Shown here: piece by piece, positions 28,273-64,000 of the stretch | How the letters are laid out: each line of letters begins with the position of its first letter | How positions within the stretch are numbered: position 1 is the stretch's first letter | IMG/VR virus record: IMGVR_UViG_3300002092_001784 | Coordinates: 1-64,000 of that record | Direction: 5' to 3' (one strand) | DNA length: 64,000 bases | Origin: a virus | Lineage: Duplodnaviria > Caudoviricetes | Program-made: the position numbers and the translations under genes | The notes under the pieces: model-generated | Databases searched by the model: none | What the model was told of the DNA's origin: nothing | Seen by the model: only the letters and a program-made list of their open reading frames with translations

Positions 28273-28629
28273 ATGAATACGACACGATATACTGATGTGG
28301 CAAAACTATCCAGAGAATATGATTTGAATGTAATAAAACCATTTATACCAACCACAAATCAAAATGATTACAATAGGGGGTATATTACACGGTTTTTTAC
28401 ACAAAAATCAAATGATTCGGCATCTACCGTATATGAGATACATTCATCTACATATTCCAAACTATCCAATAACCCATTTTTTAATACTGTGAGTTTGGAC
28501 TGGCAAATAATAGGTACAGAGGAAAAAATAAAGGATGTTAACAAACGTTCAATACAGTTTGCAGCAAAGACGTTGCCGGCAGTTCAACTTTATTTACCAA
28601 ATCTGTTACAGTTCAGAAAAACTTCTTAA
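28273..28629 (+). CDS. Hypothetical baseplate-adjacent protein
   Basis: Clean 118-aa ORF at the end of the baseplate operon. Confidence 0.6.
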   Translation: MNTTRYTDVAKLSREYDLNVIKPFIPTTNQNDYNRGYITRFFTQKSNDSASTVYEIHSSTYSKLSNNPFFNTVSLDWQIIGTEEKIKDVNKRSIQFAAKTLPAVQLYLPNLLQFRKTS

Positions 28630-29304: not shown

Positions 29305-29336
29305 TTTGGCGATTTGGACTATTTTTCGTATATTTG
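29305..29336 (+). promoter_or_regulatory. Bacteroidota-type promoter
   Basis: TTTG-N20-TATATTTG, immediately before ATG 29342. Confidence 0.8.
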
Positions 29337-29341
29337 TTTCG

Positions 29342-30628
29342 ATGAAAATAGTAGAGACCCAAATAGAATTAGACCTTCTCAAATCCACATTAGAGGAGGA
29401 TATATCCATTATCTTCCCGATGTGGATAGATGATGAATTGCATCCAAATAACACCGTATTATCGTTCCTATTCGTAAGAGTGGGGGGTTCTGATTACATT
29501 GTAAGCTCACAACATTGTGATACTCTATCACTTACGAAATCGGACATCGAAGATATGATGAATACCGCTGGTGACAAGTTTGTATTTCAAAAAAAGAAGT
29601 TGATTCAATCGTTGGATATTCACACCAATCTATACGATATTGAAACGGCAATCTTCCTAAAGACCGGACAGACATTAGACTATACCGAACCATTTAAGGG
29701 TTTGGTGACACCATTGTATAGAATGGGGTATCGTGATAATTTAATCCAATCTATACCAATATTAAAGTTGGGCGAAGTAATACAGCAATTTATTTCTAAA
29801 CATTCGGATTTTCATATTACCGATTATAACTATAAATGGTACAACGATATATTCATACCAACCTTATCGAAGATAGAGAAATATGGGATTCGGGTCGATA
29901 GAAAAAAATTTACAGATAGATTTAGCCAATCAGCCAAACAGCTTTCCACCGATAACCTCATTTTTACCGAATACAATCCATACACCGTAACCGGCCGCCC
30001 ATCAAATCGACATGGTGGTGTGAATTTTTCGGCTCTTAACAAATCGGATGGTACGCGTGATGTGTTCGTTTCGGATGGGATATTCTTACAAATGGATTAT
30101 GATGCCTATCACCCACGTCTTATCGGTGAACTTATCGGATACACACTTCCCAAAACTTCGGTTCATCGTTGGTTGGCTGAACAATATGGGTGTAGTTACG
30201 AAGAAGGAAAGGCCGTAACATTTCAATTACTTTATGGTGGTATAGATGATGAATTTCGTCAAATACCGTATTTTAATGGAGTGGCTGATTATATAATTGA
30301 ATTGTGGAAGGCCGTATCTGCGGTGGGGTATCTTCAAACTCGTTATCGGAGAATACCGCTGAGTTGGATTGCAGACCCTAATCCACAAAAGGTATTTAAT
30401 TACCTTTTACAGGCGTTGGAAACTGAAATCAATATGGATATAGTTGGAGAGGTATTGGAATACATTAAAGATACCGATATAAAGTTATCGTTATATGTTT
30501 ATGATTCATTTCTGTTTGATTACCCAATAGATGCCGATACTGAACTTGCTAAGGGGTTGAAAGCAATAATAGAGAGTAAAGGGTTTCCGATAAAGGCCAG
30601 TTGGGGTACAGATTATGGAAAAGTTTAA
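29342..30628 (+). CDS. Minimal, divergent family A DNA polymerase
   Basis: TVTGRPS, motif A QMDYDAYHPR, motif B KAVTFQLLYGG, NYLLQALET, motif C YVYDS. Start moved to ATG 29342 because the listed start overlaps the promoter. Confidence 0.8.
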   Translation: MKIVETQIELDLLKSTLEEDISIIFPMWIDDELHPNNTVLSFLFVRVGGSDYIVSSQHCDTLSLTKSDIEDMMNTAGDKFVFQKKKLIQSLDIHTNLYDIETAIFLKTGQTLDYTEPFKGLVTPLYRMGYRDNLIQSIPILKLGEVIQQFISKHSDFHITDYNYKWYNDIFIPTLSKIEKYGIRVDRKKFTDRFSQSAKQLSTDNLIFTEYNPYTVTGRPSNRHGGVNFSALNKSDGTRDVFVSDGIFLQMDYDAYHPRLIGELIGYTLPKTSVHRWLAEQYGCSYEEGKAVTFQLLYGGIDDEFRQIPYFNGVADYIIELWKAVSAVGYLQTRYRRIPLSWIADPNPQKVFNYLLQALETEINMDIVGEVLEYIKDTDIKLSLYVYDSFLFDYPIDADTELAKGLKAIIESKGFPIKASWGTDYGKV

Positions 30629-38095: not shown

Positions 38096-38926
38096 ATGGC
38101 TATTAACTTAGATGCAATCAGAGGTAGACTGAACAAACTACAAACGACCACAAGGACATCGGTGGAAACTTGGAAACCCGCACCGGGAAAATATCAAATC
38201 CGATTAGTTCCGTATAAGTTCAACAAAGAAAATCCATTCATTGAACTTTACTTTCACTACAACATCAACAACAAAACGTATCTGTCACCAATTTCATTTG
38301 GTAGACCAGACCCTATTGTTGAGTTCGCTGAAAAACTGAAAAGAATGGGTGACAAAGAAGATTGGAAGGCCGCAAAGAAAATGGAGCCGAAACTTCGGAC
38401 ATTCGTACCTGTATTGGTAAGGGGTGAAGAAGGTGAAGGAGTTCGTTTTTGGGGATTTGGAAAAACCGTATACCAAGACCTGCTTGGGTACATTGCTGAT
38501 CCCGATTATGGTGATATTACTGATCCAGAAACAGGTAGGGATATTATCGTTGAAATTGTATCAGCTGAAGATTCTGGTACTTCGTATCAGCAAACCAACA
38601 TTAGGGTTAAACCTAAAGAAACACCATTATCGGAAAAAGCAGAAGATGCCAAACGGTTTCTTGATTCACAAAAAGAGATTACTGAAATGTATTCTGAATT
38701 AACATATTCAGAATTAAAAGGTATTCTTGAAGGTTGGTTAAATCCATCGTCTGAATCTGATGATACTGATGTGCCATCACCATCGGCTGAAGTGTTATCT
38801 TCAAAACCGGCTGAAACCGCTAAAGCAACTCACGTTGCAAATGAAACCGCAAATTCAACACCTACATCTAATAACAAAAAATTAGATGATGTTGGTTCTG
38901 CGTTTGATGAACTGTTTAACAAATAA
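38096..38926 (+). CDS. Single-stranded DNA-binding protein (T4 gp32-like)
   Basis: WKP...IRLVP, FWGFGKTVY, DYGDITDP..GRD motifs and an acidic tail ending AFDELF. Confidence 0.85.
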   Translation: MAINLDAIRGRLNKLQTTTRTSVETWKPAPGKYQIRLVPYKFNKENPFIELYFHYNINNKTYLSPISFGRPDPIVEFAEKLKRMGDKEDWKAAKKMEPKLRTFVPVLVRGEEGEGVRFWGFGKTVYQDLLGYIADPDYGDITDPETGRDIIVEIVSAEDSGTSYQQTNIRVKPKETPLSEKAEDAKRFLDSQKEITEMYSELTYSELKGILEGWLNPSSESDDTDVPSPSAEVLSSKPAETAKATHVANETANSTPTSNNKKLDDVGSAFDELFNK

Positions 38927-45289: not shown

Positions 45290-45493
45290 ATGGGAGTGTT
45301 AAGAGGTGAGTCTCATCCGTCAGCAAAGTTGACGGATGAGCAGGTTTTGCAAATAAGAAAGTTATGGAATATGGGGCATCGAAACCTAAAAGTGATTGCC
45401 CGTAATAATCATGTATCGCCTGCAAATATTATGAAGATTATCCATTTCAAAACTTGGACACATCTAAATGAATTTTGGTCTGGAAGTTTATAA
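45290..45493 (+). CDS. Small DNA-binding protein resembling HNH-associated HTH domains
   Basis: GESHPSAKLTDEQV.QIR motif. Confidence 0.65.
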   Translation: MGVLRGESHPSAKLTDEQVLQIRKLWNMGHRNLKVIARNNHVSPANIMKIIHFKTWTHLNEFWSGSL

Positions 45494-45603: not shown

Positions 45604-46227
45604 ATGGAAACCGATAAACGCAAATTGTACAATCAAAGCTGGGAAAACCTAAAACTAGGACCAATTGGTGCATCTGAAAAGGCTAAAATCAATGGTATAT
45701 ATAAAAATTGTTTGAATTGTAACAAAGAATTTAGAGTATCACATTCTACCAGCAAAAAGAAATTTTGTAGTAAAGAATGTAAAGCAATAGGTCAATCATC
45801 TGGATTAACTGCACCAATGAGGTATGGAACAGGTAGAACAGCCATTCAAAAAATTATAGCTAATAAATATAATAGATATGTTTCGAAAGATGGTAATATC
45901 GGAATAAGTCGAACTGATTTTATTAAACTGATAGAAAGTGGAGAATGTTATTATTGTGGGTCTACCGTAACTGAAACTTTAGGATTTGATAGAATAGATA
46001 ATACAAAAGGTCATATAATTGGTAATGTCCTTATTTGCTGTGAGTTGTGTAATACAACAAAAGGGCATCGCTATTCAGTCGAACAAATGAAACAGTTGGG
46101 AAATTTAATAAAAACATTTAATTTGGATGGCTGGAGAACAATGGGTGAGTTACAATTGACAAAAATGAAAAAAACAAACGAAACGTTATATGAATTACAA
46201 AGGACAGATAAAACTGATATTGGGTGA
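45604..46227 (+). CDS. Free-standing His-Me-finger (HNH-like) homing endonuclease with zinc finger
   Basis: CLNC...FCSKEC; CYYCG...GFDRIDN..G...N...CCELCN..KG. Confidence 0.8.
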   Translation: METDKRKLYNQSWENLKLGPIGASEKAKINGIYKNCLNCNKEFRVSHSTSKKKFCSKECKAIGQSSGLTAPMRYGTGRTAIQKIIANKYNRYVSKDGNIGISRTDFIKLIESGECYYCGSTVTETLGFDRIDNTKGHIIGNVLICCELCNTTKGHRYSVEQMKQLGNLIKTFNLDGWRTMGELQLTKMKKTNETLYELQRTDKTDIG

Positions 46228-47587
46228 TTGTTTAGATAAGCTAAAAGAATTAGATGACAATTCCGTAGATAGTATCGTTACAGACCCACCATATGGATTG
46301 TCAGCAGCCAAAAATAGTGGTAACTCTTCGAAAGGTGGCTTTATGGGAAAATTGTGGGATTATGATGTCCCAACACAGGCCATTTGGGAGGAATGTCTAC
46401 GTGTATTAAAACCCGGAGGTCACCTATTGGCATTTGCAGGTAGTAGAACTTATCACCGAATGGCAGTTAGAATTGAAGATGCTGGGTTTGAAATCCGAGA
46501 TCAGATAATGTGGATATATGGAAGTGGATTTCCTAAGTCTATGGATATATCAAAACAGATTGATAAAAAGGCAGGAGTAGAAAGAGAAGTTATTGGACAA
46601 AAAATTAGAGGAAGTGTTGATTTGGCAAAACAATCTGGATCAACCTACGCCGTAGCAGATGCTAACAAGAATAATAAAGCTATATTTGGATATGGTGTGG
46701 AAAATTTAACTAAACCCGCAACCGATGGCGCAAAGAAATGGGAAGGTTGGGGTACTGCTCTTAAACCGGCACACGAACCAATAGTAATGGCACGCAAACC
46801 GATAGAAGAAAATACTGTTGCTGATAATGTACTAAAGTACGGAACTGGTGGTATAAATATAGATGGGTGTCGTGTTGAAACTGATGATAAATTAGATGGT
46901 GGCGCTACAAATGGTTCTGTATTGGATATTGATGGATTTGACAGACCGTGGATGCATGATGATGAAAAGATGATTGAGTTTCAACAAAAAATGCAAGATA
47001 AGGTCGAACATGCACAGAATTTAGGTAGGTTTCCCGCTAATGTTATTTTGGATGATGTTGCGGGCGAAATAATGGATGAACAAAGTGGTGTTACAAAAAG
47101 TGGAAAAATAAAGGAAGATAAATCGGCATATGATGGAGAATCAACCACTGGATTTTTAAGAGGTGTTAGTAATAGTACCAATCAGCATGGAGATACCGGC
47201 GGAGCATCTCGATTCTTCTATTGCCCAAAAGTATCAAAATCCGAAAGAAACGAAGGATTGGGTGGATTTGAACTAACTTCGGTTGAACCAAAACAAAACT
47301 TTCATCCTACCGTGAAACCAACAGACCTAATGGCATATTTGATTAGATTAGTGACACAACGTGGTGGTATCGTTTTAGACCCATTTATGGGTAGTGGTAG
47401 TACTGGTAAGGCAGCGGTGCGTGAAGGTATGAATTTTATTGGAATTGAAATGGAGCAGGATTATTTTGAACTTGCTGAAGCTAGGATTGATTGGGAAACT
47501 GAAAATCCGATGAAACCGAATAAAAAGAAATCAAATCCATTACTACCAACACCAACAAATAACACAGTTGAAACCGATTATTGGTAA
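46190..47587 (+). CDS. N6-adenine/N4-cytosine DNA methyltransferase, beta class, with large insertion
   Basis: TDPPYG precedes DPFMGSGSTG; HPTVKP motif. Confidence 0.92.
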   Translation: MNYKGQIKLILGDCLDKLKELDDNSVDSIVTDPPYGLSAAKNSGNSSKGGFMGKLWDYDVPTQAIWEECLRVLKPGGHLLAFAGSRTYHRMAVRIEDAGFEIRDQIMWIYGSGFPKSMDISKQIDKKAGVEREVIGQKIRGSVDLAKQSGSTYAVADANKNNKAIFGYGVENLTKPATDGAKKWEGWGTALKPAHEPIVMARKPIEENTVADNVLKYGTGGINIDGCRVETDDKLDGGATNGSVLDIDGFDRPWMHDDEKMIEFQQKMQDKVEHAQNLGRFPANVILDDVAGEIMDEQSGVTKSGKIKEDKSAYDGESTTGFLRGVSNSTNQHGDTGGASRFFYCPKVSKSERNEGLGGFELTSVEPKQNFHPTVKPTDLMAYLIRLVTQRGGIVLDPFMGSGSTGKAAVREGMNFIGIEMEQDYFELAEARIDWETENPMKPNKKKSNPLLPTPTNNTVETDYW

Positions 47588-47638: not shown

Positions 47639-47935
47639 ATGGCAAAACAAGCTGATAACAGTAAAGACAAGTATGAATTAATTTTTGAAGATGAACAAGC
47701 CGTTTCCATTTGGAAATATGATCTGTCCAAAACTAAAGGTGGACCAATATCAGTAGAGTACAAATGGAAGGCCAGTTTCTTGAAAGAAGTAGAAGCAATT
47801 CGGAAAGCAGAAAGAGATGCTAAGAAAACGAAAAAATCAACTTTAGAGTTGGCAAGAGAAGCTAAGAAAAAGAAATCATCCGCAGAAAAAAAGCAAGAAA
47901 AGAAAGATAAATTTGACAAAAAGTTTTGGGCATGA
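47639..47935 (+). CDS. Hypothetical protein, Lys-rich tail ending KFWA
   Basis: ATG at 47639 follows the promoter. Confidence 0.65.
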   Translation: MAKQADNSKDKYELIFEDEQAVSIWKYDLSKTKGGPISVEYKWKASFLKEVEAIRKAERDAKKTKKSTLELAREAKKKKSSAEKKQEKKDKFDKKFWA

Positions 47936-48732
47936 GAGAAGATGGTAAGAATTATTGTGATGTTTCAAAAGTGTATATTGCTCCAATAGCCAAAAACATT
48001 GCCAAAGATATTATTGTACAAAAGCATTACACACATGCGTGGACAGCATGCCGATACGCATTGGGTATTTACTATAAAGCAGAAGATTCATATACTTTTG
48101 GTGGTGATAAATTGATAGGGTGTCTTATTTACGGATTTCCTGTTGGAGTTCAAGCAGCAACTTCGATTTGTGAAGGACTTAGTAAGGATAATGCATTAGA
48201 ATTAACCCGTTTATATTGTGATGATGGTTATGGCTCAAATATTGAATCATACGCAATCGGACAATCATTCAAATGGCTGAAAGAAAATGATAAAAACATC
48301 AAACTACTTTTATCATATGCAGATGCAGGACAAGAACATTTAGGTGGTATCTATCAGGCTACCAACTGGATATATCAGGGAACATCAGCAGATATAGCAT
48401 TAATGCCTAATTGGAGAATATCATTACACAATGACCCATATGATTGGATTCACAGTAGGACTGTATTCTCAATGTGGGGTAGTGGTAATTTAGACCACCT
48501 AAAAAGGGAGATCGGTAAGCAAGGGTATAAAGAGTTCTGGCGAAAAATGGAATCGCCTAAACACCGTTATATTCAAATACTTGCGCAAGATAAAAAAGAA
48601 AAGAAGGAATTGATGAAGAAACTCAAACACGAAATCAAACCTTATCCAAAGAGTACCGATGAATTTAATACTGAAATAGTTCATCATTTAACAACATACG
48701 AAGTGCCTGCTGGGGCTGAAAACTTTTGGTAA
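47932..48732 (+). CDS. Mom-like GNAT-fold DNA modification protein
   Basis: KHY, LELTRL, SYAD..Q.H.G.IYQATNW.Y.G motifs; ATGA overlap with the previous gene. Confidence 0.8.
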   Translation: MREDGKNYCDVSKVYIAPIAKNIAKDIIVQKHYTHAWTACRYALGIYYKAEDSYTFGGDKLIGCLIYGFPVGVQAATSICEGLSKDNALELTRLYCDDGYGSNIESYAIGQSFKWLKENDKNIKLLLSYADAGQEHLGGIYQATNWIYQGTSADIALMPNWRISLHNDPYDWIHSRTVFSMWGSGNLDHLKREIGKQGYKEFWRKMESPKHRYIQILAQDKKEKKELMKKLKHEIKPYPKSTDEFNTEIVHHLTTYEVPAGAENFW

Positions 48733-49768: not shown

Positions 49769-50884
49769 ATGAATTTTTGGGAAGGTCAAATTAGTAAAGA
49801 TGCTAGAAAAGTGTTGGTGATACCGAATATCACCAACTCTAGCAATATAGAGAAAGATTCATTCGTAGATGTTATTTACAACCACATAAAGGGGTTAGAG
49901 CAATACGGTGAATACTTTTGGAATATCATATTGCCAGAACCGGTTAAGAAGTTGAATTTACCCAATGTAAAGCAACATGTCTTACCATTTTCTGGTGATA
50001 TGATAAAAATGCGTACATATCCACCTGATATGAATCGTATTCTTGAGCAAGTAGACTATGATGTAATATATTCACATTTACCCGATTGGCCGCAGGTTGG
50101 TAGATACCGAAACAATTTTGATACAAAAATAATTGGGTATTGTCATTGGTGGGAAATGAAAACTTGCAATGCGGAAGATCGAAAGAATAAATGGCGATGG
50201 TTACCAGTTGAATTGTTAGGTATATCACAAATGGAAACTTGTTATTTGAATACTCAAGATCAAAAGAATAGAGTTTTAGCCGAAGCAAGTGATACTTTCA
50301 ATAGTGAGTTTGTTGCTAAATTAGACTCAATATTAACAGTATGGAATTTGGGATTACCAAAAGATAAAATAGTTGATAACGCATCAAATGATAAATCTAA
50401 CATAATCGTATTCAATCATAGAGCAGCTGCATATAAGGGATATCCTGATTTTATTAAGTTGATGGTAGAGTATCGTGAAAAAAGACAAGATTTTAGCGTA
50501 TGGGTGCCTCAATTAAATGGTACTCCATCTGAAAATTGGATTGATAATACGAAGATGCCAAAGCATGAATATTATAAACGATTACAGCAATGTAAGGTTG
50601 GTGTGCAGATGAGGCAAACTAATTACGGTTGGAGTGTATCGGGTACAGATTGCATGATGAACGGTACACCTATGATTTTTCAAGATTCCCTTTGTTATAG
50701 AGAAATAGACCCAAATGGTATGTTTTTCAAATACAAAAAAGACTTTTTCGAAATGTTGGACAAAATGTTAGATGATGAATCTTTCAGAAAAGAACATGAA
50801 GTTAGGAGTATAAATAGAGCAATCGAACTTTCAGCCAATGAAGGTATAATGCTTGCTGAATTACACAAAAAACTAAATAGCTAA
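49769..50884 (+). CDS. GT-B fold glycosyltransferase (GT4-like)
   Basis: IVFNHR...YKG, YYKRLQQC.VG and GWS.S.TD.MM.GTP (variant of the EX7E region); starts MNFW. Confidence 0.7.
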   Translation: MNFWEGQISKDARKVLVIPNITNSSNIEKDSFVDVIYNHIKGLEQYGEYFWNIILPEPVKKLNLPNVKQHVLPFSGDMIKMRTYPPDMNRILEQVDYDVIYSHLPDWPQVGRYRNNFDTKIIGYCHWWEMKTCNAEDRKNKWRWLPVELLGISQMETCYLNTQDQKNRVLAEASDTFNSEFVAKLDSILTVWNLGLPKDKIVDNASNDKSNIIVFNHRAAAYKGYPDFIKLMVEYREKRQDFSVWVPQLNGTPSENWIDNTKMPKHEYYKRLQQCKVGVQMRQTNYGWSVSGTDCMMNGTPMIFQDSLCYREIDPNGMFFKYKKDFFEMLDKMLDDESFRKEHEVRSINRAIELSANEGIMLAELHKKLNS

Positions 50885-53406
50885 TGGCATATCAAAACAT
50901 TTATTTTCAGAGAAATCAAAATCTAATGCACATTTGGGATGATCATCGGGGATATAGGACATTTCCGTATTCTCGTTATGCATATCAAAAAGACCCAAAT
51001 GGACAATTTACGTCTTTATATGGCGATAAACTTACTAAAATTTTCAAATTTTCAAAGGATGATCCAAATTTATTCGAATCCGATGTCCCAGAAACTACAC
51101 GGGTTTTGGTAGATACATATACGGATAGTGATTTACCATCGGAAGGACATATCATTTTAACATATGATATTGAGGTTGAAATGGATTCCGGTCTTCCTGA
51201 TGTTCAGAAGGCTGAAAATGAAATAACTGCTATTGGTTTGCATGATTCTGCTACAAACCATTATTGGGTATTGATTATGGATAAAGCCGGTAAGATGGAT
51301 GGTGTTGAAACTGGAAACCGAACCGTTATACCGTTTAGATACGAAGATGATTTATTATTAAAATACATTGATTTGTATGAGGAAATAAATCCAACAATCG
51401 TTACTGGATGGAATATTGATAATTTTGATACTCCGTTTTTATACAATAGAATAAAAAGATTATTGGGTGAGAAGCAAGCCAATCGTTTATCGCCGATTGG
51501 TGAGGTGTTCTGGTCACCATATCGTAAACGATATTTTATTGCCGGTGTATCTTATTTGGATTACATTGAATTGTATAAGAACTTTACATATTCGGAGTTA
51601 GCAAATTACCGCTTGGACAGTATTGCTAATATCGAATTGGGTAGAGGAAAACTTGAGTATACTGGAAATTTGGATAACCTGTTTAAGACAGACCCTAATA
51701 AGTTTATAGAATACAACATTACTGACGTTGAGTTGGTGGTTAGTATGGATGCTAAATTACAATTCATTGATTTGTGTAGAGGTATATGCCATGCAGGCCA
51801 CGTTCCGTATGAAGATTTTGTATATTCATCGAAATACCTTGAAGGCGCTATTCTTTGTTATTTGAAACGAAGGGGTATTGTTGCTCCTAACAAACCTGCG
51901 GATAGGCAGGAAAGGATGCAGGCTCTTAAAGATAATGAGCAAGAAAAGTTCATTGGTGCATATGTGAAGGCACCGATAGTTGGTAAGTATGAATGGGTGT
52001 ATGACTTAGACTTAACATCGCTATATCCATCTATCATTATGGGTGTAAATATATCACCGGAAACCAAAGTTGCTAAGATTTCGAATTGGGACTCTTCAAA
52101 GTATATGAAGGGCGAGATTGATACATTTAATATTGATGGACAATCCATTACCAACGATAACCTTAAACTGATGTTGCAAGAGGAAAAATATACTATTTCA
52201 TCAAACGGTGTATTATATCGGACAGATAAAGTAGGTTGTATACCTGATATTTTGGATTTATGGTTCAATCAGCGTGTTGAATTTCGTAAGTTAGAAAAGA
52301 AATACGGTGAAGAAGGTGATAAGGTACAACATGCATTTTATAAAAGGAGACAGCATGTTCAGAAGATTTTGCTTAATTCACTTTATGGTGTATTAGGTTT
52401 GCCAGCGTTTCGTTTCTACGATGTTGATAATGCAGAAGCAGTTACAACTTCTGGGCAGATGGTTATTAAATCAACTGCGGATATGGCTAACATCAAATAT
52501 AACAAAGAATTGGGAACGGGTGATGCAGATTATAATATTTACATCGATACGGATTCCATTTTCTTTAGTGCAGTGCCGATTTTGGATTTCCGATATGCGG
52601 ATTGGAGAAGTGGTACTCAAGAAGATATAGCAAAATTGGTTGATACTGTTGCAGGTGAAACGCAAGATTATCTGAATAATTTTTATAACATTTTAGCGGA
52701 GAGGGTATTTAATATTCCAAAAGGTAAACATCGTTTTCAGATTAAGAAAGAGTTTGTATCCAGAAGTGCAATTTGGTTAGCTAAGAAACGATATGCTATG
52801 GCAATTGTAGCTGAAAATGGATTACCAATAAATAGGTTGGATGTAAAGGGATTAGACGTTGTACGTTCATCATATCCTGCACAGTTCCGTAAATTTATGA
52901 GTGAGGTATTGATTGATATTCTGAATGGTAAAACAGAAAATGAGTTGAGTGATAAGATATATTACTTTAAGTTGGACCTTAGAAATATGGATGCCGTTTC
53001 AATAGCTAAAAATTCGGCAGTAAAAGAATTATCGAAGTATATTCCGAAAGGAAAGCAAACGGCAATGTTTCGATTTAATTCCGGTACTCCTGCGCATGTG
53101 AAGGCGGCAATTGCATTTAATCAATTAATTAAACATTTTAATTGTCCTACAAGTATTGAACCAATGCGTGATGGTGATAAGATAAAATGGATGTATCTGA
53201 AACAAAATCCGTATGGGTTGGATGCCGTTGGGTTTAAGGGATACGAAGACCCGACAGAAATAATTGAGTTCATAAAAACATATGCTGATTATGATGAAGT
53301 ATTTGAACGTGAACTTCTAGGTAAGTTGGAAGATTTCTATACCGCATTGAAGTGGGGTTCGCCGTTAGGTAGCACGAAAGTCTCAGAACAATTTTTTCAA
53401 TTTTAA
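50884..53406 (+). CDS. Family B DNA polymerase (gp43-like)
   Basis: Exonuclease YDIEV/GWN...FD; DLTSLYPS, KILLNSLYG, YIDTDS motifs. Confidence 0.95.
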   Translation: MAYQNIYFQRNQNLMHIWDDHRGYRTFPYSRYAYQKDPNGQFTSLYGDKLTKIFKFSKDDPNLFESDVPETTRVLVDTYTDSDLPSEGHIILTYDIEVEMDSGLPDVQKAENEITAIGLHDSATNHYWVLIMDKAGKMDGVETGNRTVIPFRYEDDLLLKYIDLYEEINPTIVTGWNIDNFDTPFLYNRIKRLLGEKQANRLSPIGEVFWSPYRKRYFIAGVSYLDYIELYKNFTYSELANYRLDSIANIELGRGKLEYTGNLDNLFKTDPNKFIEYNITDVELVVSMDAKLQFIDLCRGICHAGHVPYEDFVYSSKYLEGAILCYLKRRGIVAPNKPADRQERMQALKDNEQEKFIGAYVKAPIVGKYEWVYDLDLTSLYPSIIMGVNISPETKVAKISNWDSSKYMKGEIDTFNIDGQSITNDNLKLMLQEEKYTISSNGVLYRTDKVGCIPDILDLWFNQRVEFRKLEKKYGEEGDKVQHAFYKRRQHVQKILLNSLYGVLGLPAFRFYDVDNAEAVTTSGQMVIKSTADMANIKYNKELGTGDADYNIYIDTDSIFFSAVPILDFRYADWRSGTQEDIAKLVDTVAGETQDYLNNFYNILAERVFNIPKGKHRFQIKKEFVSRSAIWLAKKRYAMAIVAENGLPINRLDVKGLDVVRSSYPAQFRKFMSEVLIDILNGKTENELSDKIYYFKLDLRNMDAVSIAKNSAVKELSKYIPKGKQTAMFRFNSGTPAHVKAAIAFNQLIKHFNCPTSIEPMRDGDKIKWMYLKQNPYGLDAVGFKGYEDPTEIIEFIKTYADYDEVFERELLGKLEDFYTALKWGSPLGSTKVSEQFFQF

Positions 53407-53409
53407 TAT

Positions 53410-54372
53410 ATGAAAGTTACAGTTGTAATTAGAACATATAATAGGACTGATTTTTTGAAGCAGTGTCTTGCTTCAGTGAAGTTGCAAACACATACCGATT
53501 GGGAAGTTTTAATATTTGATGATGGTGGTAGTGATGCTAATTTTGAAATATACAATAAATTTAAGGCAGAAAATTCCGATAAACGAATAGTATATCTAAC
53601 AACACACACTGCGTATGAACTATTTTGTAATTCATGGTTACTTGCTCCCAATTTGGCAACGGGTGATATTATGGTTAGGTTGGATGATGATGATCTATTA
53701 GCAGAAGATTGTTTGAGTTACATATCCGATTTATATGAACGAAATGAAGATTTAGATTTCACATACGGAACTGCGGTTACATTTGATGGTGATAATCTTA
53801 TGACTATGATGGATACAATGAATCCACAAGAAGCACCTAAAACTCAAACTGCATGGGCTGGTTATACTATACCAAATAATCATCCATGGAGAGACCCGTT
53901 TTGTTGGTATGAGAATTATTATGAAGAACCTCAACCATTTACATCTATAATCCATTGTAGTAAATCGAATATAATGTGCATTTATCATTTATATTCAATG
54001 AGAACTGAATCGGTCAGACGTGTGAAGGATAAGATTACAGTAACTTCTAAATATGTAGATGATTTGGAATTTTTAGGAAGTTTGGATTATTTGGGATTAA
54101 CACATACATCAATACATAAAATACTTTCTTATGTTAGAGAGCATGATACAGGTAGGGTATCTGATAGGGGTAAGTTAACCGATGGTACTACATTGTGGGA
54201 TGATATACTGAGAATTAGAGATAAAGTAGATTATTTAAGACCTGCTGGATTTCAATCAAGAGTAATACCAATCAACGCAACCAATAATACCAATAACGGT
54301 ATTACCTATGAGTTACAAAATACGTTCTCACACTATTATAGTAGAATAAAATTCAAATCTTTAGTATATTAA
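53410..54372 (+). CDS. GT-A fold glycosyltransferase (GT2-like)
   Basis: VVIRTYNR, FDDGG.D and RLDDDD motifs. Confidence 0.85.
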   Translation: MKVTVVIRTYNRTDFLKQCLASVKLQTHTDWEVLIFDDGGSDANFEIYNKFKAENSDKRIVYLTTHTAYELFCNSWLLAPNLATGDIMVRLDDDDLLAEDCLSYISDLYERNEDLDFTYGTAVTFDGDNLMTMMDTMNPQEAPKTQTAWAGYTIPNNHPWRDPFCWYENYYEEPQPFTSIIHCSKSNIMCIYHLYSMRTESVRRVKDKITVTSKYVDDLEFLGSLDYLGLTHTSIHKILSYVREHDTGRVSDRGKLTDGTTLWDDILRIRDKVDYLRPAGFQSRVIPINATNNTNNGITYELQNTFSHYYSRIKFKSLVY

Positions 54373-54404
54373 TTTGGAAATACGAATAATTTTTCGTATA
54401 TTTG
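54373..54404 (+). promoter_or_regulatory. Bacteroidota-type promoter
   Basis: TTTG-N20-TATATTTG. Confidence 0.8.
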
Positions 54405-54439
54405 TACAGAATATAAAATTTAACAATAAACTTTGAAAC

Positions 54440-55135
54440 ATGAAAAGAGCAAAACTCGATGGTTTTATTAATCGTTACAATTTGGGTGGCGAAATTGAGT
54501 CTGTTATGATTAAATCAACAGATGAAAAATTATCAGTCCGTATGATTTCGGATGATAAAACATTATTGGGAACAGTATCTATGTTGGATACTGAATTTCC
54601 TACGGGAGAATTTGGAATTTATACAACTTCCCAATTGAAGGGATTACTGAATGTATTGGATGATGGCATCACCGTAGAGGAAGTTACAGGTGCATTAAAA
54701 TTTTCGGATAAGAAAACCAAAATGCAATATATGTTGGCAGCGCCATCGGTTATTCCATCCGTACCAGAACTTAAAGCATTACCTGCATTTGAAGCAGAAA
54801 TTGCATTGAATGATGAATTTGTAAATAAGTTCATTAAATCTACCGGAGCATTATCTGATTCTCTTACATTTACATTCACCTACAAAAAAGGTGTTGGTGA
54901 GATTATTTTAGGATATTCATCTATCAATTCAAATCGTATTGCTATTGATACTGATACGAAATCGGAAGTTGATATTGAACCAATTGCGTTTTCATCAAAA
55001 TATCTGAAAGCTATTCTTAATGCAAATCGGGGTGCTAAAACATCTTCATTGAAGATTTCATCTAAGGGGTTGGCAGCTGTTTCATTTGAGGCAGATGAAT
55101 ATACTACCCAGTATTATCTTGTTGAAGTAAAATAA
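54440..55135 (+). CDS. Sliding clamp (gp45/PCNA-like)
   Basis: 231 aa two-domain alpha/beta pattern, FGIY...L..LL and F...YL..IL motifs; lies near PolB and the clamp loader. Confidence 0.7.
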   Translation: MKRAKLDGFINRYNLGGEIESVMIKSTDEKLSVRMISDDKTLLGTVSMLDTEFPTGEFGIYTTSQLKGLLNVLDDGITVEEVTGALKFSDKKTKMQYMLAAPSVIPSVPELKALPAFEAEIALNDEFVNKFIKSTGALSDSLTFTFTYKKGVGEIILGYSSINSNRIAIDTDTKSEVDIEPIAFSSKYLKAILNANRGAKTSSLKISSKGLAAVSFEADEYTTQYYLVEVK

Positions 55136-55150
55136 TTAAAATCATAAAGT

Positions 55151-56365
55151 ATGAATTTTTGGGATACTGAACCACAAACACCTGTTTTTGATTTTGATAT
55201 TGAAAAACAGAAATTGATTGAAAATATGGATTATCTGTTTGCAATGTCCGTTCAAGAACAGACACTTTATAAAAAATGGGTGGAGCTCCAAGAACCTACC
55301 ATGCAGAAAGATAAATCCCAAATATCCACATATTATGATATGCAATGGAAACCAACCGATATCAATAATAAGGAACTAACGATTGCCGAAATTCAATCGT
55401 TAGAACCTTATGTTGAGATTGTGGATGATAATGCTGCCGAATCTACCAAATGGGCTCAAATCCGTAGAATGATTCATACAATGGATTTTACGGCAAACCC
55501 CGGTAGAAATGTGAAAATCAATGTAAAGGATAGAAAGACGGGTAAGTTATTGGGTCAAATTTCTCTTGCATCGGATGTTACATCATTGGGGGTGCGTGAT
55601 GAATATATTGGGTGGACTAAGGATGACAAATTCAAAAAAGGTAAACTGAATCACACTACCATTGCATCTACTATTGTATGTACACAGCCATTGGGATATA
55701 ACTTTTTGGGTGGTAAACTGATAGCTATGATGTGTACTGTACCTGAAGTTAGAGAACATTGGAAGAAAAAATACGATAATACTTTAATCGCAGTTGGAAC
55801 AACTTCGTTATATGGTATCAATTCTCAGTACACAGGCCTTCCACTTTTCAAAACTTTGGGTGAAAGTAAAGGTAAGATCAGTATAAAACCTGATGATAAA
55901 TTTTATGATCCATGGCACCAATGGTTAAAAGAAAATCGTACAGAGTGGTATAAGAAAAACATAACAGAAGAGCGTGAACGAAATGGCGCTAATATGGGTT
56001 ATGAACGAAATGGACCTGTTAGTGGCATCAAACAAAAGATTCTTACACAAATTTTCAAAGAGTGTGGTATTAAAGCAAATGAATATCATCACGGATTTAA
56101 GCGTGGAATTTATTTGGCTATGATGTACGAAAATGGTAATGATTTTCTTTGTGATAAAATTGGTGAAGACCAACTAAAACTTAGAGATAAGTTTGTGAAG
56201 GGAACAGATTATATTATGGAGTGGTGGAAACGACACGCTATTAGTAGATATACCAAGCTACATACAGAGGGACGTTTGAAACCGGATCATCTTTTTTACA
56301 TCAATGGTATAGGACAAGATTGGGATAGCTTTAAGGCCGAATACTTAGGAGAAGTTGGACGTTAA
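55151..56365 (+). CDS. DUF4338/DruA-like protein
   Basis: PGRN...V.D..TGK.LG.I.L.SD...L..RD.YIGW, P.GYNFLGGKL.A and TTSLYG..SQY motifs; starts MNFW. Confidence 0.7.
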   Translation: MNFWDTEPQTPVFDFDIEKQKLIENMDYLFAMSVQEQTLYKKWVELQEPTMQKDKSQISTYYDMQWKPTDINNKELTIAEIQSLEPYVEIVDDNAAESTKWAQIRRMIHTMDFTANPGRNVKINVKDRKTGKLLGQISLASDVTSLGVRDEYIGWTKDDKFKKGKLNHTTIASTIVCTQPLGYNFLGGKLIAMMCTVPEVREHWKKKYDNTLIAVGTTSLYGINSQYTGLPLFKTLGESKGKISIKPDDKFYDPWHQWLKENRTEWYKKNITEERERNGANMGYERNGPVSGIKQKILTQIFKECGIKANEYHHGFKRGIYLAMMYENGNDFLCDKIGEDQLKLRDKFVKGTDYIMEWWKRHAISRYTKLHTEGRLKPDHLFYINGIGQDWDSFKAEYLGEVGR

Positions 56366-57324: not shown

Positions 57325-57858
57325 ATGAGTCAAACAATTAAATTATTAAAAGAAGCATTAAAAGATATAGCCGGAGATACTACCGGCTATAAAATTTACT
57401 GTGATATGGATGGTGTTCTTACGGATTTTGATAAACAATTCAAAGATATAACAGGTATACCTGCTAATGAATTTGAAAAAACACATTCTCAAACTGAATT
57501 TTGGGGAGAAGTTGAAAAGGGCGGATTGGAATATTGGACAAAAATGGAATGGATGCCGGGTGGAAAGCAGTTATGGAATTTTATTAAGAACTATGATGTT
57601 GAAATTCTATCAGCTCCATCAAAATCTAAACTTTCAATTATTGGTAAAAAGCAATGGGTATCTGAAAACCTATCACCTAAACCTAAATTGAATTTGGTTA
57701 GAGCCAAAGAAAAACAGAAGTTTGCAAATTCACACGCAATACTAATCGATGATAGACCACAAAATTTAGAACAATGGAAAGCAGCCGGTGGTATTGCAAT
57801 AAAATGTGTGAATGGTGAGGTTAGTTCAGTAATAGATAAATTAAAAAAATATGTTTGA
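57325..57858 (+). CDS. HAD 5'(3')-deoxyribonucleotidase-like protein
   Basis: CDMDGVLTDF, ILSAP and LIDDR..N motifs. Confidence 0.85.
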   Translation: MSQTIKLLKEALKDIAGDTTGYKIYCDMDGVLTDFDKQFKDITGIPANEFEKTHSQTEFWGEVEKGGLEYWTKMEWMPGGKQLWNFIKNYDVEILSAPSKSKLSIIGKKQWVSENLSPKPKLNLVRAKEKQKFANSHAILIDDRPQNLEQWKAAGGIAIKCVNGEVSSVIDKLKKYV

Positions 57859-58792
57859 AACAGTAAACGAAAAGAAAAACAACAGTTTATGGACTGAGTC
57901 ATACCGACCAACCAAATTGGCGGATTACATCGGAAATGAACACTTAAAATCAAAAGTAGAGGGGTATTTGGAATCGGGCGATATACCTCATTTACTGTTA
58001 TATGGCAAAGCTGGAACTGGTAAGACTACATTGGCTAAATTGATTGTAAATTCAATCGATTGTGATATGATGATTATCAACGCATCTGATGAAAACAATG
58101 TTGAAACAGTTAGAACAAAGGTGAAGAACTTTGCATCGTCTATGGGATTCAAACCATTTAAGATTGTTATTTTGGATGAGTTTGATTATATGACTGCAAA
58201 CGCACAGGCGATTCTTCGTAACTTAATGGAAACATTTTCACAGCATTGCCGGTTTATCTTAACGTGTAATTATGTTGAAAAGGTAATTGAACCAATTCAG
58301 AGCAGATGTCAGACATTTCAAATCGTACCGCCAACTAAAAAAGATGTTGCAATTCGGATAAGTCAAATATTGAAAGACCAGAACATAAAGTTTGAGTTGA
58401 AGGATTTGGTTCCTGTTATTGATGCAGCATATCCTGATATTCGTAAGATTATTAATACCTGTCAACTTAATTCTATTAAAGGTGAATTGAAGGTTGATGT
58501 TCAAAATCTGTTAGAGAATGATTATAAGACCAAAATTGTGGACATTCTTACATCTAAAAATGATAAAAGAAATAAGTACATGCAATGCAGGCAAACTCTT
58601 ATTGATTCAAAGGTTACAGATTTTACCGAACTATATACGTTACTTTACGATAAAGTTGACGAATACGGCGGTGAAAATACAGCTAATATCATTTTGATAT
58701 TAGGGGAGAGTGTATATAAGAGTGCGTTGGCAATCGACAAAGAAATCATTGCTGCGGCGACAATTATTAGTATCATTAATCTGATAGGATAA
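57851..58792 (+). CDS. Clamp loader AAA+ subunit (gp44/RFC-small-like)
   Basis: W.E.YRP, GKAGTGKTT, INASD, LDEFD and SRC motifs. Confidence 0.92.
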   Translation: MFETVNEKKNNSLWTESYRPTKLADYIGNEHLKSKVEGYLESGDIPHLLLYGKAGTGKTTLAKLIVNSIDCDMMIINASDENNVETVRTKVKNFASSMGFKPFKIVILDEFDYMTANAQAILRNLMETFSQHCRFILTCNYVEKVIEPIQSRCQTFQIVPPTKKDVAIRISQILKDQNIKFELKDLVPVIDAAYPDIRKIINTCQLNSIKGELKVDVQNLLENDYKTKIVDILTSKNDKRNKYMQCRQTLIDSKVTDFTELYTLLYDKVDEYGGENTANIILILGESVYKSALAIDKEIIAAATIISIINLIG

Positions 58793-62564: not shown

Positions 62565-64000
62565 ATGACAGAATATAAAGTAGGAGACATTAGAAACGGT
62601 AGTGAGGTAATACCTGCGGAGCAGAGAAAGAAGATATTACTTCTATCTGATGATTTGAGAATGGCGAGCGGTATTGCTACAATGTCCAAAGAATTTGTAT
62701 TAGGTACAATTCATAGGTATAATTGGTTTCAAGTTGGTAGTGCTATCAACCACCCAGACCAAGGAAAGATTTTGGATGTAAGCGCTGATACAAAGAACGT
62801 AACCGGTATATCTGATGCAAATCTAAAAATTTTACCGTGGAATGGATATGGAAATGCAGATTTACTACGGCAATTGATTAACGCAGAACGGCCGGATGCT
62901 ATACTTCATTTTACAGACCCACGATATTGGACATGGTTATATGATATTGAACATGAGATAAGACAAAATGTTCCAATCTTATACTACTCAATTTGGGATG
63001 ATTTACCTGACCCAATGTACAATCGTAATTTTTATGAAAGTTGTGATTGGATCGGTTGTATTTCCAGACAGACTTATGGCATTACCAAAAGAATGATGTC
63101 TAAAGCAGATAAATCAACATGGAAACCATTTAAGGAATGGCAAGCAAATTATGTACCACATGGTATCAATACTGATGTTTACAGACCAATAACTGTACCT
63201 GATGAATTTAGAAAAGAAATTTTGGGAGATAAAGAATATGATTTCGTATTATATTGGTCTAACAGAAACATTCGTAGGAAACAACCAGCCGATGTTATTT
63301 ACGCTTTCAAGCTTTTTTGTGATAAAATTGGAAAAGAACAGGCAGATAAGGTTTGTTTATTAATGCACACACAACCTGTGGATGAAAATGGAACAGATTT
63401 ACCAGCAGTTATTGCCGCAGTTGCACCTGATTGTAATATCATTTTTTCGGACAAACGAAGAGGTACTGATCAATTAAATCTACTATATAACATAGCAGAT
63501 GTAACTATTAACATTGCTAATAATGAAGGATTTGGATTAACTACGGCTGAAAGTGTAATGGCAGGTACTCCAATTATAGTAAATGTTACTGGTGGATTGC
63601 AAGATCAATGTGCATTTACTGTAAAAGGTAAGTTATTAACAGCAGAAGATTACATTGAAATCGGTTCTTTACACAACTGGAGAAAGTGGAAATCAAAAGT
63701 TAAGTGGGGTGAGTGGGTAACTCCAATTTGGCCAAAAGCACAATCATTGGCAGGTTCAATCCCAACACCGTATATTTGGGATGATCGCGTTGATATTGAG
63801 GATGTGGCTGAAGCCATTTTAGAGGTATACAAAGTTCCAAGTCCAGAACGAAAAACTGCTGGTCTTAAAGGTAGGGAAGCATTCATTACCAAAATGGGAT
63901 TAAACACTGAAAATATGTGTAAAACAATGGCGGATGGTATTGATACTACTCTTAAAAATTGGAAGCCAAGAGAACGTTATGAACTTTTCAAAATTAGATA
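62565..64000 (+). CDS. GT-B glycosyltransferase (GT4-like), runs off the window end
   Basis: Open frame from MTEYKV...: KILLLSDDL...SG, VPHGI, NRNIRRKQP, NEGFGL...ES..AGTPII. Not in the ORF track because no stop falls inside the window. Confidence 0.85.
   Translation, partial: MTEYKVGDIRNGSEVIPAEQRKKILLLSDDLRMASGIATMSKEFVLGTIHRYNWFQVGSAINHPDQGKILDVSADTKNVTGISDANLKILPWNGYGNADLLRQLINAERPDAILHFTDPRYWTWLYDIEHEIRQNVPILYYSIWDDLPDPMYNRNFYESCDWIGCISRQTYGITKRMMSKADKSTWKPFKEWQANYVPHGINTDVYRPITVPDEFRKEILGDKEYDFVLYWSNRNIRRKQPADVIYAFKLFCDKIGKEQADKVCLLMHTQPVDENGTDLPAVIAAVAPDCNIIFSDKRRGTDQLNLLYNIADVTINIANNEGFGLTTAESVMAGTPIIVNVTGGLQDQCAFTVKGKLLTAEDYIEIGSLHNWRKWKSKVKWGEWVTPIWPKAQSLAGSIPTPYIWDDRVDIEDVAEAILEVYKVPSPERKTAGLKGREAFITKMGLNTENMCKTMADGIDTTLKNWKPRERYELFKIR

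What the first reader, a model, noticed from the sequence alone, without database searches (positions are those of the whole stretch)
49769..54372. PolB is flanked by two tightly coupled glycosyltransferases
Seen: the GT-B gene's stop overlaps the PolB ATG (TAATG), and a GT2 gene starts 4 nt after PolB and precedes the clamp. Known: T4 agt/bgt are GT-B enzymes that glucosylate DNA. Inference: these act on DNA or nucleotides rather than on surface glycans. No hydroxymethylase is visible in the window, so the acceptor base is unknown and could be made by the Mom-like or DUF4338-like enzyme.
Basis: partly seen in the sequence, partly recalled or inferred. Interest (0 to 1): 0.65.

Follow-up and report, generated by a model that had tools for sequence, protein, structure and literature searches.

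The report
Polymerase-linked phage sugar transferase, likely DNA-modifying
Of the two sugar-transferase genes beside this giant phage's DNA polymerase, one is a recent insertion. The other belongs to a virus-only family kept beside the replication genes in many uncultured phages, and it probably adds sugar to the phage's own DNA, though this is untested.

Summary
GT-B (49769-50884) overlaps PolB by TAATG. GT2 (53410-54372) starts 3 nt after the PolB stop and precedes the clamp. But the two genes are not a pair.

GT2 is an ordinary SpsA-like GT-A. It sits by PolB only in this lineage, inserted exactly between the PolB stop and a conserved PolB-clamp intergenic element. Its orthologues lie elsewhere in relatives.

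GT-B belongs to an isolated, virus-only family with only 156 hits among 1.84 billion representatives.
- In 66 related loci it is more conserved than PolB (median 73% against 58%).
- It lies next to PolB or the clamp.
- It co-occurs with a DruA/DUF4338-family gene in 29/29 freshwater and 26/29 marine loci.
- It carries an N-terminal M-x-F-W-[D/E] tag, as does the DruA-like protein; Mom and the DNA methylase end in [F/Y]-W.

The likeliest reading is replication-coupled DNA glycosylation on a base first altered by the DruA-like or Mom enzyme (about 0.5, inferred).

It is not a T4 AGT/BGT homologue. The genome's only ThyA homologue looks like an ordinary thymidylate synthase, and no TET/JBP, TGT or 2OG-FeII_Oxy_3 gene was found.

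First readers of this scan noted similar GT-B/PolB loci, most with a DruA-like gene, in other genomes.

The parts
49769..50884 (+). GT-B glycosyltransferase (371 aa). Member of a virus-only family that stays with PolB, the clamp and a DruA-like gene.
49769..49804 (+). Flexible N-terminal tail carrying the tag M-N-F-W-E. It precedes the first strand of the Rossmann fold.
   Evidence: Residues 1-5 have pLDDT below 50 and residues 1-12 have no secondary structure. M-x-F-W-[D/E] is the prevailing GT-B N-terminus in the related loci.
50881..50886 (+). TAATG stop/start overlap between GT-B and PolB
50884..53406 (+). T4-type family B DNA polymerase (840 aa). Its C-terminus is ..EQFFQF; relatives end in F-F-[S/G/A]-F.
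53410..54372 (+). GT2 / SpsA-like GT-A glycosyltransferase (320 aa). A lineage-specific insertion with no terminal tag.
54373..54439 (+). Conserved intergenic element (ATTTGG ... ATTTTTCGTATATTTGT). In relatives it follows the PolB stop directly.
54440..55135 (+). gp45-like sliding clamp (231 aa). Proposed docking hub for the tagged enzymes (inferred).
   Evidence: phrog_223
55151..56365 (+). DruA/DUF4338-family protein (404 aa) with N-terminus MNFWD. The constant partner of GT-B in relatives.
47926..48732 (+). Mom-family enzyme (268 aa) with C-terminus ..ENFW
46190..47587 (+). N6/N4 DNA methyltransferase (465 aa) with C-terminus ..TDYW. Not found in the related loci.

Best explanation
The two glycosyltransferases are functionally separate.

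(1) GT-B (49769-50884) is a divergent, probably NDP-sugar-dependent enzyme with a GT4-like GT-B fold. It is made together with the polymerase. I propose that its flexible N-terminal M-x-F-W-[D/E] tail brings it to newly made phage DNA. The DruA-like protein carries the same N-terminal tag, and Mom and the DNA methylase end in [F/Y]-W. The likeliest docking partner is the gp45-like clamp, which in T4 binds short aromatic/acidic terminal tails. On the DNA, GT-B would add a sugar to a base first altered by its constant partner, the DruA/DUF4338-family (GNAT-fold) enzyme, and in this clade perhaps also by Mom. This would shield the DNA from host nucleases.

(2) GT2 (53410-54372) is an SpsA-like GT-A that landed between PolB and the clamp only in this lineage. 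It more probably belongs to the phage's large protein/glycan glycosylation repertoire. A role as a second-sugar DNA transferase is not excluded.

Shown: gene order, conservation, co-occurrence, tags, folds, and the absence of the known hydroxylated-base routes that were looked for. Inferred: DNA as acceptor, clamp docking, and the DruA-then-GT-B order.
For: **An isolated, virus-only family**
- phmmer over 1.84 billion representatives finds only 156 proteins at E <= 1e-3.
- The Atlas's nearest GT-B clusters are 100% viral.
- There is no hit in 50,697 deposited phage records.
- A scan of 185,579 species genomes that reaches close relatives only found none.

**Conservation**
- Median identity to the window protein is 73% for GT-B, 58% for PolB and 46% for the clamp.
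- GT-B is the more conserved of GT-B and PolB in 64 of 66 loci.
- Even in the marine clade the best match is 37.5% for GT-B against 33.5% for PolB.

**Linkage**
- GT-B lies in the replisome block of every related locus with enough flank to judge.
- A DruA-like gene is present in 29/29 freshwater and 26/29 marine loci with enough flank.
- In the marine clade the order is PolB, DruA-like, GT-B. It is interrupted only by homing endonuclease genes or a 130-aa cytidylyltransferase-like gene.

**Tags**
- Among 325 ORFs of the genome, a strict terminal [F/Y]-W occurs only in GT-B, the DruA-like protein, Mom and the methylase. All four lie within 10 kb.
- The tags prevail across about 80 loci: GT-B and DruA-like at the N-terminus, Mom at the C-terminus.
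- PolB ends in FF[S/G/A]F and the clamp loader often starts MSFF or MAFF.

**Tagged partners that act on DNA**
- Mu Mom, which defines the Mom family, acts on double-stranded DNA (PMC13219725).
- The fourth tagged protein matches the Pfam DNA-methylase family N6_N4_Mtase.

**Fold**
- The top matches (7qsg, 6kih, 3c4q, 3mbo, 2gej) are the same structures reported for the DNA arabinosyltransferases of DLP3, RB69 and RL38J1 (PMC13326640 Table 1).
- The phage HY126 glycosyltransferase 9ir0 scores Z 22.8. HY126 DNA carries arabinosylated 5-hydroxycytosine, but no paper read here describes this chain, so its role in that pathway is my inference.

**GT2**
- No hit in any of the 80 GT-B loci.
- Its orthologues lie about 90 kb away on the same contigs as GT-B (L007/L088 and L011/L117).
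- Its usual sites are the baseplate/replication border, accessory regions, or beside glycan-island genes.
- The insertion site in this genome is precise.
Against: - No acceptor pathway of a known kind was found. ThyA is canonical, and there is no TET/JBP, TGT/DpdA or 2OG-FeII_Oxy_3.
- The best structural matches are small-molecule or lipid GT4 enzymes, and fold does not identify the acceptor.
- GT-B is near neutral (pI 6.5; N-domain 5.8), not basic.
- The first Glu of the GT4 EX7E motif is not conserved.
- The DruA-like protein shows no detectable profile similarity to Mom (hhalign probability 1.6%), and its chemistry is unknown.
- Clamp binding by an N-terminal tag has no precedent that I know of and was not modelled.
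- About 2-3 terminal [F/Y]-W matches per genome are expected by chance. The weight therefore rests on clustering and conservation.
- The genome has many other sugar genes, which earlier notes of this scan attribute to virion glycosylation.
Confidence: 0.5

Rival explanations
1. Both glycosyltransferases act on DNA in sequence. GT-B would add the first sugar and GT2 the second, as in the T2/T6 diglucosylation or the RB69 tri-arabinosylation pathways.
For: GT2 is packed 3 nt behind PolB and so is co-expressed with the replisome. Multi-transferase DNA glycosylation is established in RB69 and DLP3. The GT2 family is itself well conserved, at about 60% identity over hundreds of clusters.
Against: GT2 is missing from this position in all 80 related loci. 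On contigs that carry GT-B by PolB, GT2 lies about 90 kb away. It has no terminal tag. Its fold is a generic SpsA-like GT-A. The insertion is a clean, recent event.
Confidence: 0.12
2. GT-B and the DruA-like GNAT make or modify a small molecule or a protein, not DNA. Examples would be an MshA/BshA-type glycoside, or glycosylation of a replisome or virion protein. The replisome linkage would then reflect only co-expression timing.
For: The top fold matches are MshA, BshA, sucrose-phosphate synthase, GlgM and PimA. A GT4 plus a GNAT plus a small cytidylyltransferase is a typical metabolite-pathway gene set. No hydroxylated-base route was found. GT-B is not basic. BFVD neighbours include Arthrobacter phage glycosyltransferases. 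That actinobacteriophage transferases glycosylate virions is my own knowledge, not checked here.
Against: This does not explain why the tag is shared with Mom and a DNA methylase and with nothing else in the genome. It also does not explain conservation above that of PolB, or gene adjacency kept across clades with only 33-38% identity. The same fold matches are reported for proven or proposed DNA transferases.
Confidence: 0.25
3. GT-B glycosylates RNA, for example a modified tRNA base in the manner of the GT4-type queuosine mannosyltransferase. This phage encodes large tRNA arrays.
For: The genome has several tRNA arrays. GT4-type tRNA glycosyltransferases exist (my own knowledge). Mom-type enzymes handle charged tRNA.
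Against: The QTMAN_N model finds nothing in the genome. There is no TGT. GT-B is linked to PolB and the clamp, not to the tRNA arrays, which lie at least 39 kb beyond the window's end.
Confidence: 0.05

Closest known systems
T4 alpha- and beta-glucosyltransferases (AGT, BGT)
   Same: GT-B fold. Phage-encoded and expressed with replication genes. The proposed job is the same: adding sugar to phage DNA after synthesis to block host nucleases.
   Different: No sequence relationship: PF11440 and PF09198 find nothing in the genome. The T4 acceptor, 5-hydroxymethylcytosine, needs a dCMP hydroxymethylase, and the only ThyA homologue here is an ordinary thymidylate synthase.
DNA arabinosyltransferases of the 5-hydroxycytosine pathway (RB69 gp46:47 and gp3, DLP3 gp76/77/79; possibly the HY126 chain PDB 9ir0) (Lee et al. 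2026, PMC13326640)
   Same: GT4-like GT-B fold with the same top PDB neighbours. In Straboviridae the cluster lies in the stretch from the DNA polymerase gene to rIIA.
   Different: That pathway needs a ThyA homologue with the N177D and L143E changes, a dNMP kinase and UDP-arabinose enzymes. The ThyA signature is not met here, and the kinase and arabinose enzymes were not looked for. The partner here is a DruA/DUF4338 protein instead. That 9ir0 belongs to the arabinosylation pathway is my inference from the HY126 context.
Phage Mu Mom (tRNA-dependent GNAT that glycylates N6 of adenine in dsDNA; Silva et al. 2026, PMC13219725)
   Same: A true Mom-family gene (PF25680, E 1e-44) lies 1 kb upstream and ends in the same [F/Y]-W dipeptide that tags GT-B. 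Mom shows that a GNAT-fold enzyme can put an acyl handle on a DNA base.
   Different: Mu Mom works alone, with no glycosyltransferase. The marine loci fetched (±8 kb) keep the DruA-like/GT-B pair without Mom.
DruA (DUF4338) of type I Druantia defence systems
   Same: The GT-B partner matches PF14236 (E 1.3e-21). The family is described as a GNAT-type acetyltransferase domain (PMC10853773).
   Different: Here it is phage-encoded, sits in the replisome operon, carries the FW tag and is paired with a glycosyltransferase. No DruB-E genes were seen.
Generic SpsA-like GT2 enzymes of polysaccharide, teichoic-acid and glycan synthesis (for GT2)
   Same: PF00535 above threshold, a DxD-type DDDD motif, and best folds SpsA, TarP and K4CP.
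   Different: A phage family of about 320 aa with its own conserved C-terminal half. In this genome only, it is inserted in the replisome operon.

Membership tests
T4 beta-glucosyltransferase (Pfam PF09198) | Match to the family profile | tested here: not met
   No match in the whole 266-kb genome at E <= 1
T4 alpha-glucosyltransferase (Pfam PF11440) | Match to the family profile | tested here: not met
   No match in the genome at E <= 1
GT-B fold, GT4-like glycosyltransferases | Two Rossmann-like domains superposable on GT4 enzymes | tested here: met
   Model pLDDT 91.7. Z 27.9, 27.2 and 26.6 to 7qsg, 6kih and 3c4q, with 333-338 residues aligned.
GT-B fold, GT4-like glycosyltransferases | Pfam Glyco_transf_4 / Glycos_transf_1 above the gathering score | tested here: not met
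   21.4 bits against 28.5, and 18.9 bits against 26.4. The family profile matches PDB GT4 chains only at E 2.7e-4 or weaker.
GT-B fold, GT4-like glycosyltransferases | Donor-binding motifs (R/K after the first C-domain strand; EX7E) | tested here: inconclusive
   H217 and R218 are nearly invariant. The family consensus reads NHR-x3-YKG (K223 and G224 in the window protein), at the place of the GT4 ..KG motif. D294 replaces the second Glu and E312 is kept. The first Glu is not conserved.
5-hydroxycytosine DNA glycosylation pathway (RB69/DLP3 type) | ThyA homologue with Asp at E. coli N177 and Asp/Glu at L143 | tested here: not met
   The only ThyA-family gene (genome 186185-187459) reads ..LPPCH.. 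and ..PFNIASY.., so both Leu and Asn are kept. Its best hits are true thymidylate synthases.
TET/JBP-dependent DNA glycosylation | A TET/JBP dioxygenase gene in the genome | tested here: not met
   PF12851 finds no match at E <= 1. PF13640 also finds none, at E <= 0.1.
GT2 (Pfam PF00535), for the gene at 53410-54372 | Profile match above the gathering score, plus a DxD motif | tested here: met
   72.4 bits against 23.3. D92-D95 are invariant in 24 homologues. SpsA is the top fold match.
T4-type clamp-binding proteins (short terminal aromatic/acidic tail that docks on gp45) | Physical binding of the terminal peptide to the clamp | not testable with these tools
   Only motif conservation could be shown. 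No complex prediction or binding assay was available.

The most novel reading that the evidence does not exclude
A widespread, undescribed two-enzyme DNA hypermodification system in uncultured marine and freshwater T4-like phages. A DruA/DUF4338 GNAT-fold enzyme puts an acyl or aminoacyl handle on a DNA base, perhaps from charged tRNA as Mom does. A dedicated GT-B then glycosylates that handle. Both would be held at the replication fork by a terminal F-W peptide that docks on the sliding clamp. This would be a new acceptor chemistry, a new way of recruiting DNA-modifying enzymes, and a clue to what DruA does in Druantia defence.
Probability: 0.3. Interest if true: 0.85.

Novelty: new variant of a known kind. 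Interest (0 to 1): 0.62.

Why it matters
Phage DNA glycosylation is a classic anti-restriction strategy, but every characterised case starts from a hydroxylated pyrimidine. This glycosyltransferase family is better conserved than the polymerase beside it. It has no hit in any of the 50,697 deposited phage records searched, so no cultured phage is known to carry it. It always travels with a DruA-family enzyme of unknown chemistry, and the genome lacks every hydroxylated-base route that was looked for.

If it acts on DNA, it would define a new modified base in abundant aquatic phages. It would also suggest that modification enzymes can ride the sliding clamp, and it would give a testable lead on the function of DruA. 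Such DNA could also distort metagenomic sequencing and resist restriction enzymes.

If instead GT-B acts on a protein or a metabolite, its unusual conservation next to the replisome would still need explaining.

Tried and rejected
- **Named phage relatives.** Megablast of the region and tblastn of both GT-B forms against 50,697 phage records gave nothing. Only PolB (49.8% to Microcystis phage Mel-JY01) and the DruA-like protein (pelagimyophages, cyanomyophages) have named relatives.
- **GT2 in phage records.** tblastn found only short N-terminal matches.
- **DruA-like versus Mom.** hhalign found no relationship.
- **C-terminal extension of the marine GT-B forms.** Pfam at E <= 10 and the Atlas gave no usable hit.
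- **Promoters.** The late-promoter (TATAAATA) and sigma-70/terminator scans were uninformative.
- **Genome-collection scans.** The single-protein scan found nothing.
- **T4 AGT/BGT by structure.** Neither appears in the 50 best PDB rows by Foldseek or VIA-align. This says only that GT4 enzymes rank higher. It is not a fold exclusion.
- **Charge.** A crude pI gives no sign of a basic DNA-binding enzyme. No surface calculation was possible.

Full report
**Setting.** The window is the first 64 kb of a 266,153-bp IMG/VR virus record that CheckV rates as complete. Genes run almost entirely on the + strand. The replisome is T4-type:
- PolB matches phrog_262 at E 2e-188.
- The clamp matches phrog_223.
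- The clamp loader subunits are at 57851 and 60048.
- The single-strand binding protein is at 38096.

The nearest named phage is Microcystis phage Mel-JY01 (PolB 49.8% identical). Mel-JY01 did not appear in the tblastn search with GT-B. It was also not among the 30 listed of 31 DruA-like hits.

**Observation.** All stated junctions are present:
- GT-B runs 49769-50884 and overlaps the PolB ATG by TAATG.
- PolB runs 50884-53406.
- Three bases (TAT) follow the PolB stop, then GT2 at 53410-54372.
- A 67-nt spacer follows, then the clamp at 54440.

GT2 is a clear Pfam GT2 with a DDDD motif. GT-B reaches only sub-threshold Pfam scores. Its AlphaFold model (pLDDT 91.7) superposes on GT4 enzymes at Z 26-28 over about 335 residues. 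The surrounding genes, in order, are listed below.

| Start | Gene |
|---|---|
| 42842 | ribonucleotide reductase |
| 45604 | HNH endonuclease |
| 46190 | N6/N4 DNA methylase |
| 47926 | Mom |
| 48726 | second HNH |
| 49769 | GT-B |
| 50884 | PolB |
| 53410 | GT2 |
| 54440 | clamp |
| 55151 | DruA/DUF4338-like protein |
| 56891 | dUTPase |
| 57325 | NT5C-like nucleotidase |
| 57851 | clamp loader |

**The two transferases have different histories.** I fetched 80 viral contigs that encode a GT-B homologue and mapped the window's proteins onto them.
- GT-B is present at 69-82% identity in all 80 loci, and in the replisome block wherever enough flank is held to judge.
- GT2, the methylase and both HNH genes have no hit in any of them.

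Three gene orders occur:
- Mom ... GT-B, PolB, clamp, DruA-like (as in the window);
- Mom, DruA-like, GT-B, PolB, clamp;
- PolB, clamp, DruA-like, GT-B.

GT2 has its own family, at about 60% identity over 541 hits. Its orthologues in related phages lie elsewhere:
- mostly between homologues of window genes 28273-28629 and 29306-30628, just after a baseplate-wedge-like gene;
- or among small accessory genes;
- or, in L118, beside homologues of the glycan island that begins at 62565.

Two contigs carry GT-B by PolB and GT2 about 90 kb away (L007/L088 and L011/L117). An alignment of the spacer after GT2 with the PolB-clamp spacers of seven relatives shows the same conserved element (ATTTGG ... 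ATTTTTCGTATATTTGT). In relatives this element starts right after the PolB stop. GT2 is therefore a clean, recent insertion. "Flanked by two glycosyltransferases" is an accident of this lineage.

**GT-B is an unusual, strongly constrained family.**
- A full phmmer pass over 1.84 billion representatives found only 156 proteins at E <= 1e-3, so ordinary GT4 enzymes are out of reach by sequence.
- The Atlas's nearest GT-B clusters are all viral.
- Neither form of the protein has any hit in 50,697 deposited phage genomes.
- Median identity to the window protein is 73% for GT-B, 58% for PolB, 46% for the clamp, 67% for the DruA-like protein and 75% for Mom.
- GT-B beats PolB in 64 of 66 loci.

A second, marine branch of the family (about 450 aa, 30-39% identical) was found in 507 viral stretches, of which 80 loci were kept. 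There the order is PolB (ending ..TLEDFF), DruA-like (phrog_19197, E 4.5e-144), then GT-B. It is broken only by homing-endonuclease genes or a 130-aa cytidylyltransferase-like gene. A DruA-like gene is present in 29/29 freshwater and 26/29 marine loci with enough flank. No Mom is seen in the marine loci. Cultured pelagimyophages and cyanomyophages have the DruA-like gene without GT-B. So GT-B is almost always with a DruA-like gene, while the DruA-like gene can stand alone. This is the pattern expected if the DruA-like enzyme makes a primary mark and GT-B decorates it.

**A shared terminal tag.**
- GT-B starts MNFWE and the DruA-like protein starts MNFWD.
- Mom ends ..ENFW and the methylase ends ..TDYW.
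- Among 325 ORFs of the genome, these four are the only ones with a strict terminal [F/Y]-W, and all lie within 10 kb. Chance predicts about 2-3 such matches per genome, so the count alone is weak.
- Across about 80 related loci, M-x-F-W-[D/E] is the prevailing GT-B start and M-x-F-W-[D/E/N] the prevailing DruA-like start. The main Mom orthologue ends [K/N/S]-[F/Y]-W, while the neighbouring residues vary.
- PolB ends F-F-[S/G/A]-F, and the clamp-loader subunit often begins MSFF or MAFF.
- The marine GT-B forms start M-x-L-F-[D/E].
- In the model, the first 12 residues of GT-B have no secondary structure and residues 1-5 have low confidence, as expected of a flexible docking peptide.

Mu Mom, which defines the Mom family, acts on double-stranded DNA (PMC13219725), and the fourth tagged protein matches the Pfam DNA-methylase family N6_N4_Mtase. 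In T4, short aromatic/acidic tails of gp43, gp33 and gp55 dock on the gp45 clamp; this is my own knowledge of established work. I therefore infer that the tag recruits these four enzymes to one hub, most probably the clamp. The idea of a shared terminal peptide came from earlier first-reader notes (e1-5361891, e1-5361909). The conservation and genome-wide tests are my own.

**What the fold says.** The best PDB neighbours are retaining GT4 enzymes with small-molecule or lipid acceptors: the methylmannose mannosyltransferase 7qsg, sucrose-phosphate synthase 6kih, MshA, BshA, GlgM and PimA. This does not argue against DNA. Lee et al. 2026 (PMC13326640, Table 1) report the same structures as top hits for the DNA arabinosyltransferases of DLP3, RB69 and RL38J1. 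A glycosyltransferase of phage HY126 (9ir0) scores Z 22.8 here. HY126 DNA carries arabinosylated 5-hydroxycytosine, but no paper read here describes this chain, so its role in that pathway is my inference. BFVD neighbours mix Arthrobacter phage glycosyltransferases with entries named DNA alpha-glucosyltransferase and the SP-15 enzyme. Fold therefore does not discriminate between acceptors. T4 AGT and BGT profiles find nothing in the genome, so the T4 comparison is an analogy only.

In the family alignment, H217 and R218 are nearly invariant and the consensus reads NHR-x3-YKG where GT4 enzymes have their phosphate-binding motif. D294 and E312 are nearly invariant. The first Glu of EX7E is not conserved.

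**The acceptor.**
- The genome's only ThyA-family gene (186185-187459) keeps the Asn of PFNIASY (E. coli N177) and the Leu of LPPCH (E. coli L143). Its best hits are true thymidylate synthases, and the next sizeable ORF, two genes downstream, has a DHFR-like N-terminus (my reading). By the criteria quoted in PMC13326640, it is a plain dTMP synthase, not a hydroxymethylase or a 5-hydroxy-dCMP synthase.
- There is no TET/JBP, TGT/DpdA or 2OG-FeII_Oxy_3 gene.

The sugar cannot go on any of the known hydroxylated bases by these routes. The remaining candidates are the products of the GNAT-type neighbours. Mom transfers glycine from Gly-tRNA to N6 of adenine. DUF4338 is described as a GNAT domain (PMC10853773). 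I could not show that the DruA-like protein is related to Mom (hhalign probability 1.6%), and its chemistry is unknown. That it supplies the handle for GT-B is inference from co-occurrence.

**Against the DNA reading.**
- No acceptor chemistry is demonstrated.
- GT-B is near neutral (pI 6.5).
- A GT4 plus a GNAT plus a cytidylyltransferase also looks like a metabolite pathway.
- The genome is rich in other sugar genes, which earlier notes of this scan attribute to virion glycosylation.

I put DNA as the GT-B acceptor at about 0.5. A protein or small-molecule acceptor is about 0.25, both transferases on DNA about 0.12, and RNA about 0.05.

**Verdict.** The interesting unit is not the pair of glycosyltransferases but the conserved set of GT-B, DruA-like protein, PolB and clamp with its shared terminal tag. 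First readers of this scan noted similar GT-B/PolB loci, most with a DruA-like gene, in other genomes (e1-5833884, e1-5812114, e1-5391924), and I found no paper describing it.

Noticed in passing
window 54373-54439: The spacer before the clamp gene holds a conserved element (ATTTGG, about 14 nt, then ATTTTTCGTATATTTGT). It is invariant in the window and seven related loci, although the flanking genes differ by 25-55% in protein sequence. It is probably a promoter or another regulatory site for the clamp operon.
   Followed up: partly
L124-L203 (e.g. L199:6736-7965, L192:6490-7971): In the marine clade, several unrelated 320-490-aa families are inserted again and again exactly between the DruA-like gene and GT-B. 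The two families scanned gave homing-endonuclease, HNH or endonuclease VII matches.
   Followed up: partly
L186:7576-7962, L199:6213-6605 and 11 further marine loci: A 130-aa cytidylyltransferase-like gene (phrog_7878, E 1e-38) sits between the DruA-like gene and GT-B in 13 loci. It may make the activated donor.
   Followed up: partly
P0246 residues about 362-454; L140:9030-9299: The marine GT-B forms carry a C-terminal extension of about 90 aa with invariant W...YR. It has no Pfam or Atlas match, and its fold was not predicted.
   Followed up: partly
genome 186185-187459 (outside the window; L003:1468-2739): The thymidylate synthase is 424 aa, against 264-320 aa for typical enzymes. Query stretches of roughly 162-185, 236-270 and 339-384 are left unaligned to PDB enzymes. 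The catalytic motifs are intact.
   Followed up: partly
window 57325-57858: An NT5C-like 5'-deoxynucleotidase gene overlaps the start of the clamp-loader gene, next to a dUTPase gene. It may shape the dNTP pool.
   Followed up: no
L007-L084, homologues of window 57851-58792: The clamp-loader large subunit of many relatives begins MSFFAN or MAFFET. This aromatic N-terminal pair resembles the FW tags; the window's own copy begins MFETV.
   Followed up: partly
window 46190-47587: The DNA methylase matches a 221-position Pfam profile over residues 26-430, and matches two separate PHROG halves (6-194 and 200-439). It therefore carries a large insertion or is a fusion. It has no counterpart in the 80 related loci.
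   Followed up: no
window 45290-45493 and homologues: A 67-aa protein ends in N-E-F-W-S-G-S-L. The F-W-S-G-S-[I/L] ending is kept in a subset of relatives and replaced by other aromatic endings in the rest.
   Followed up: no
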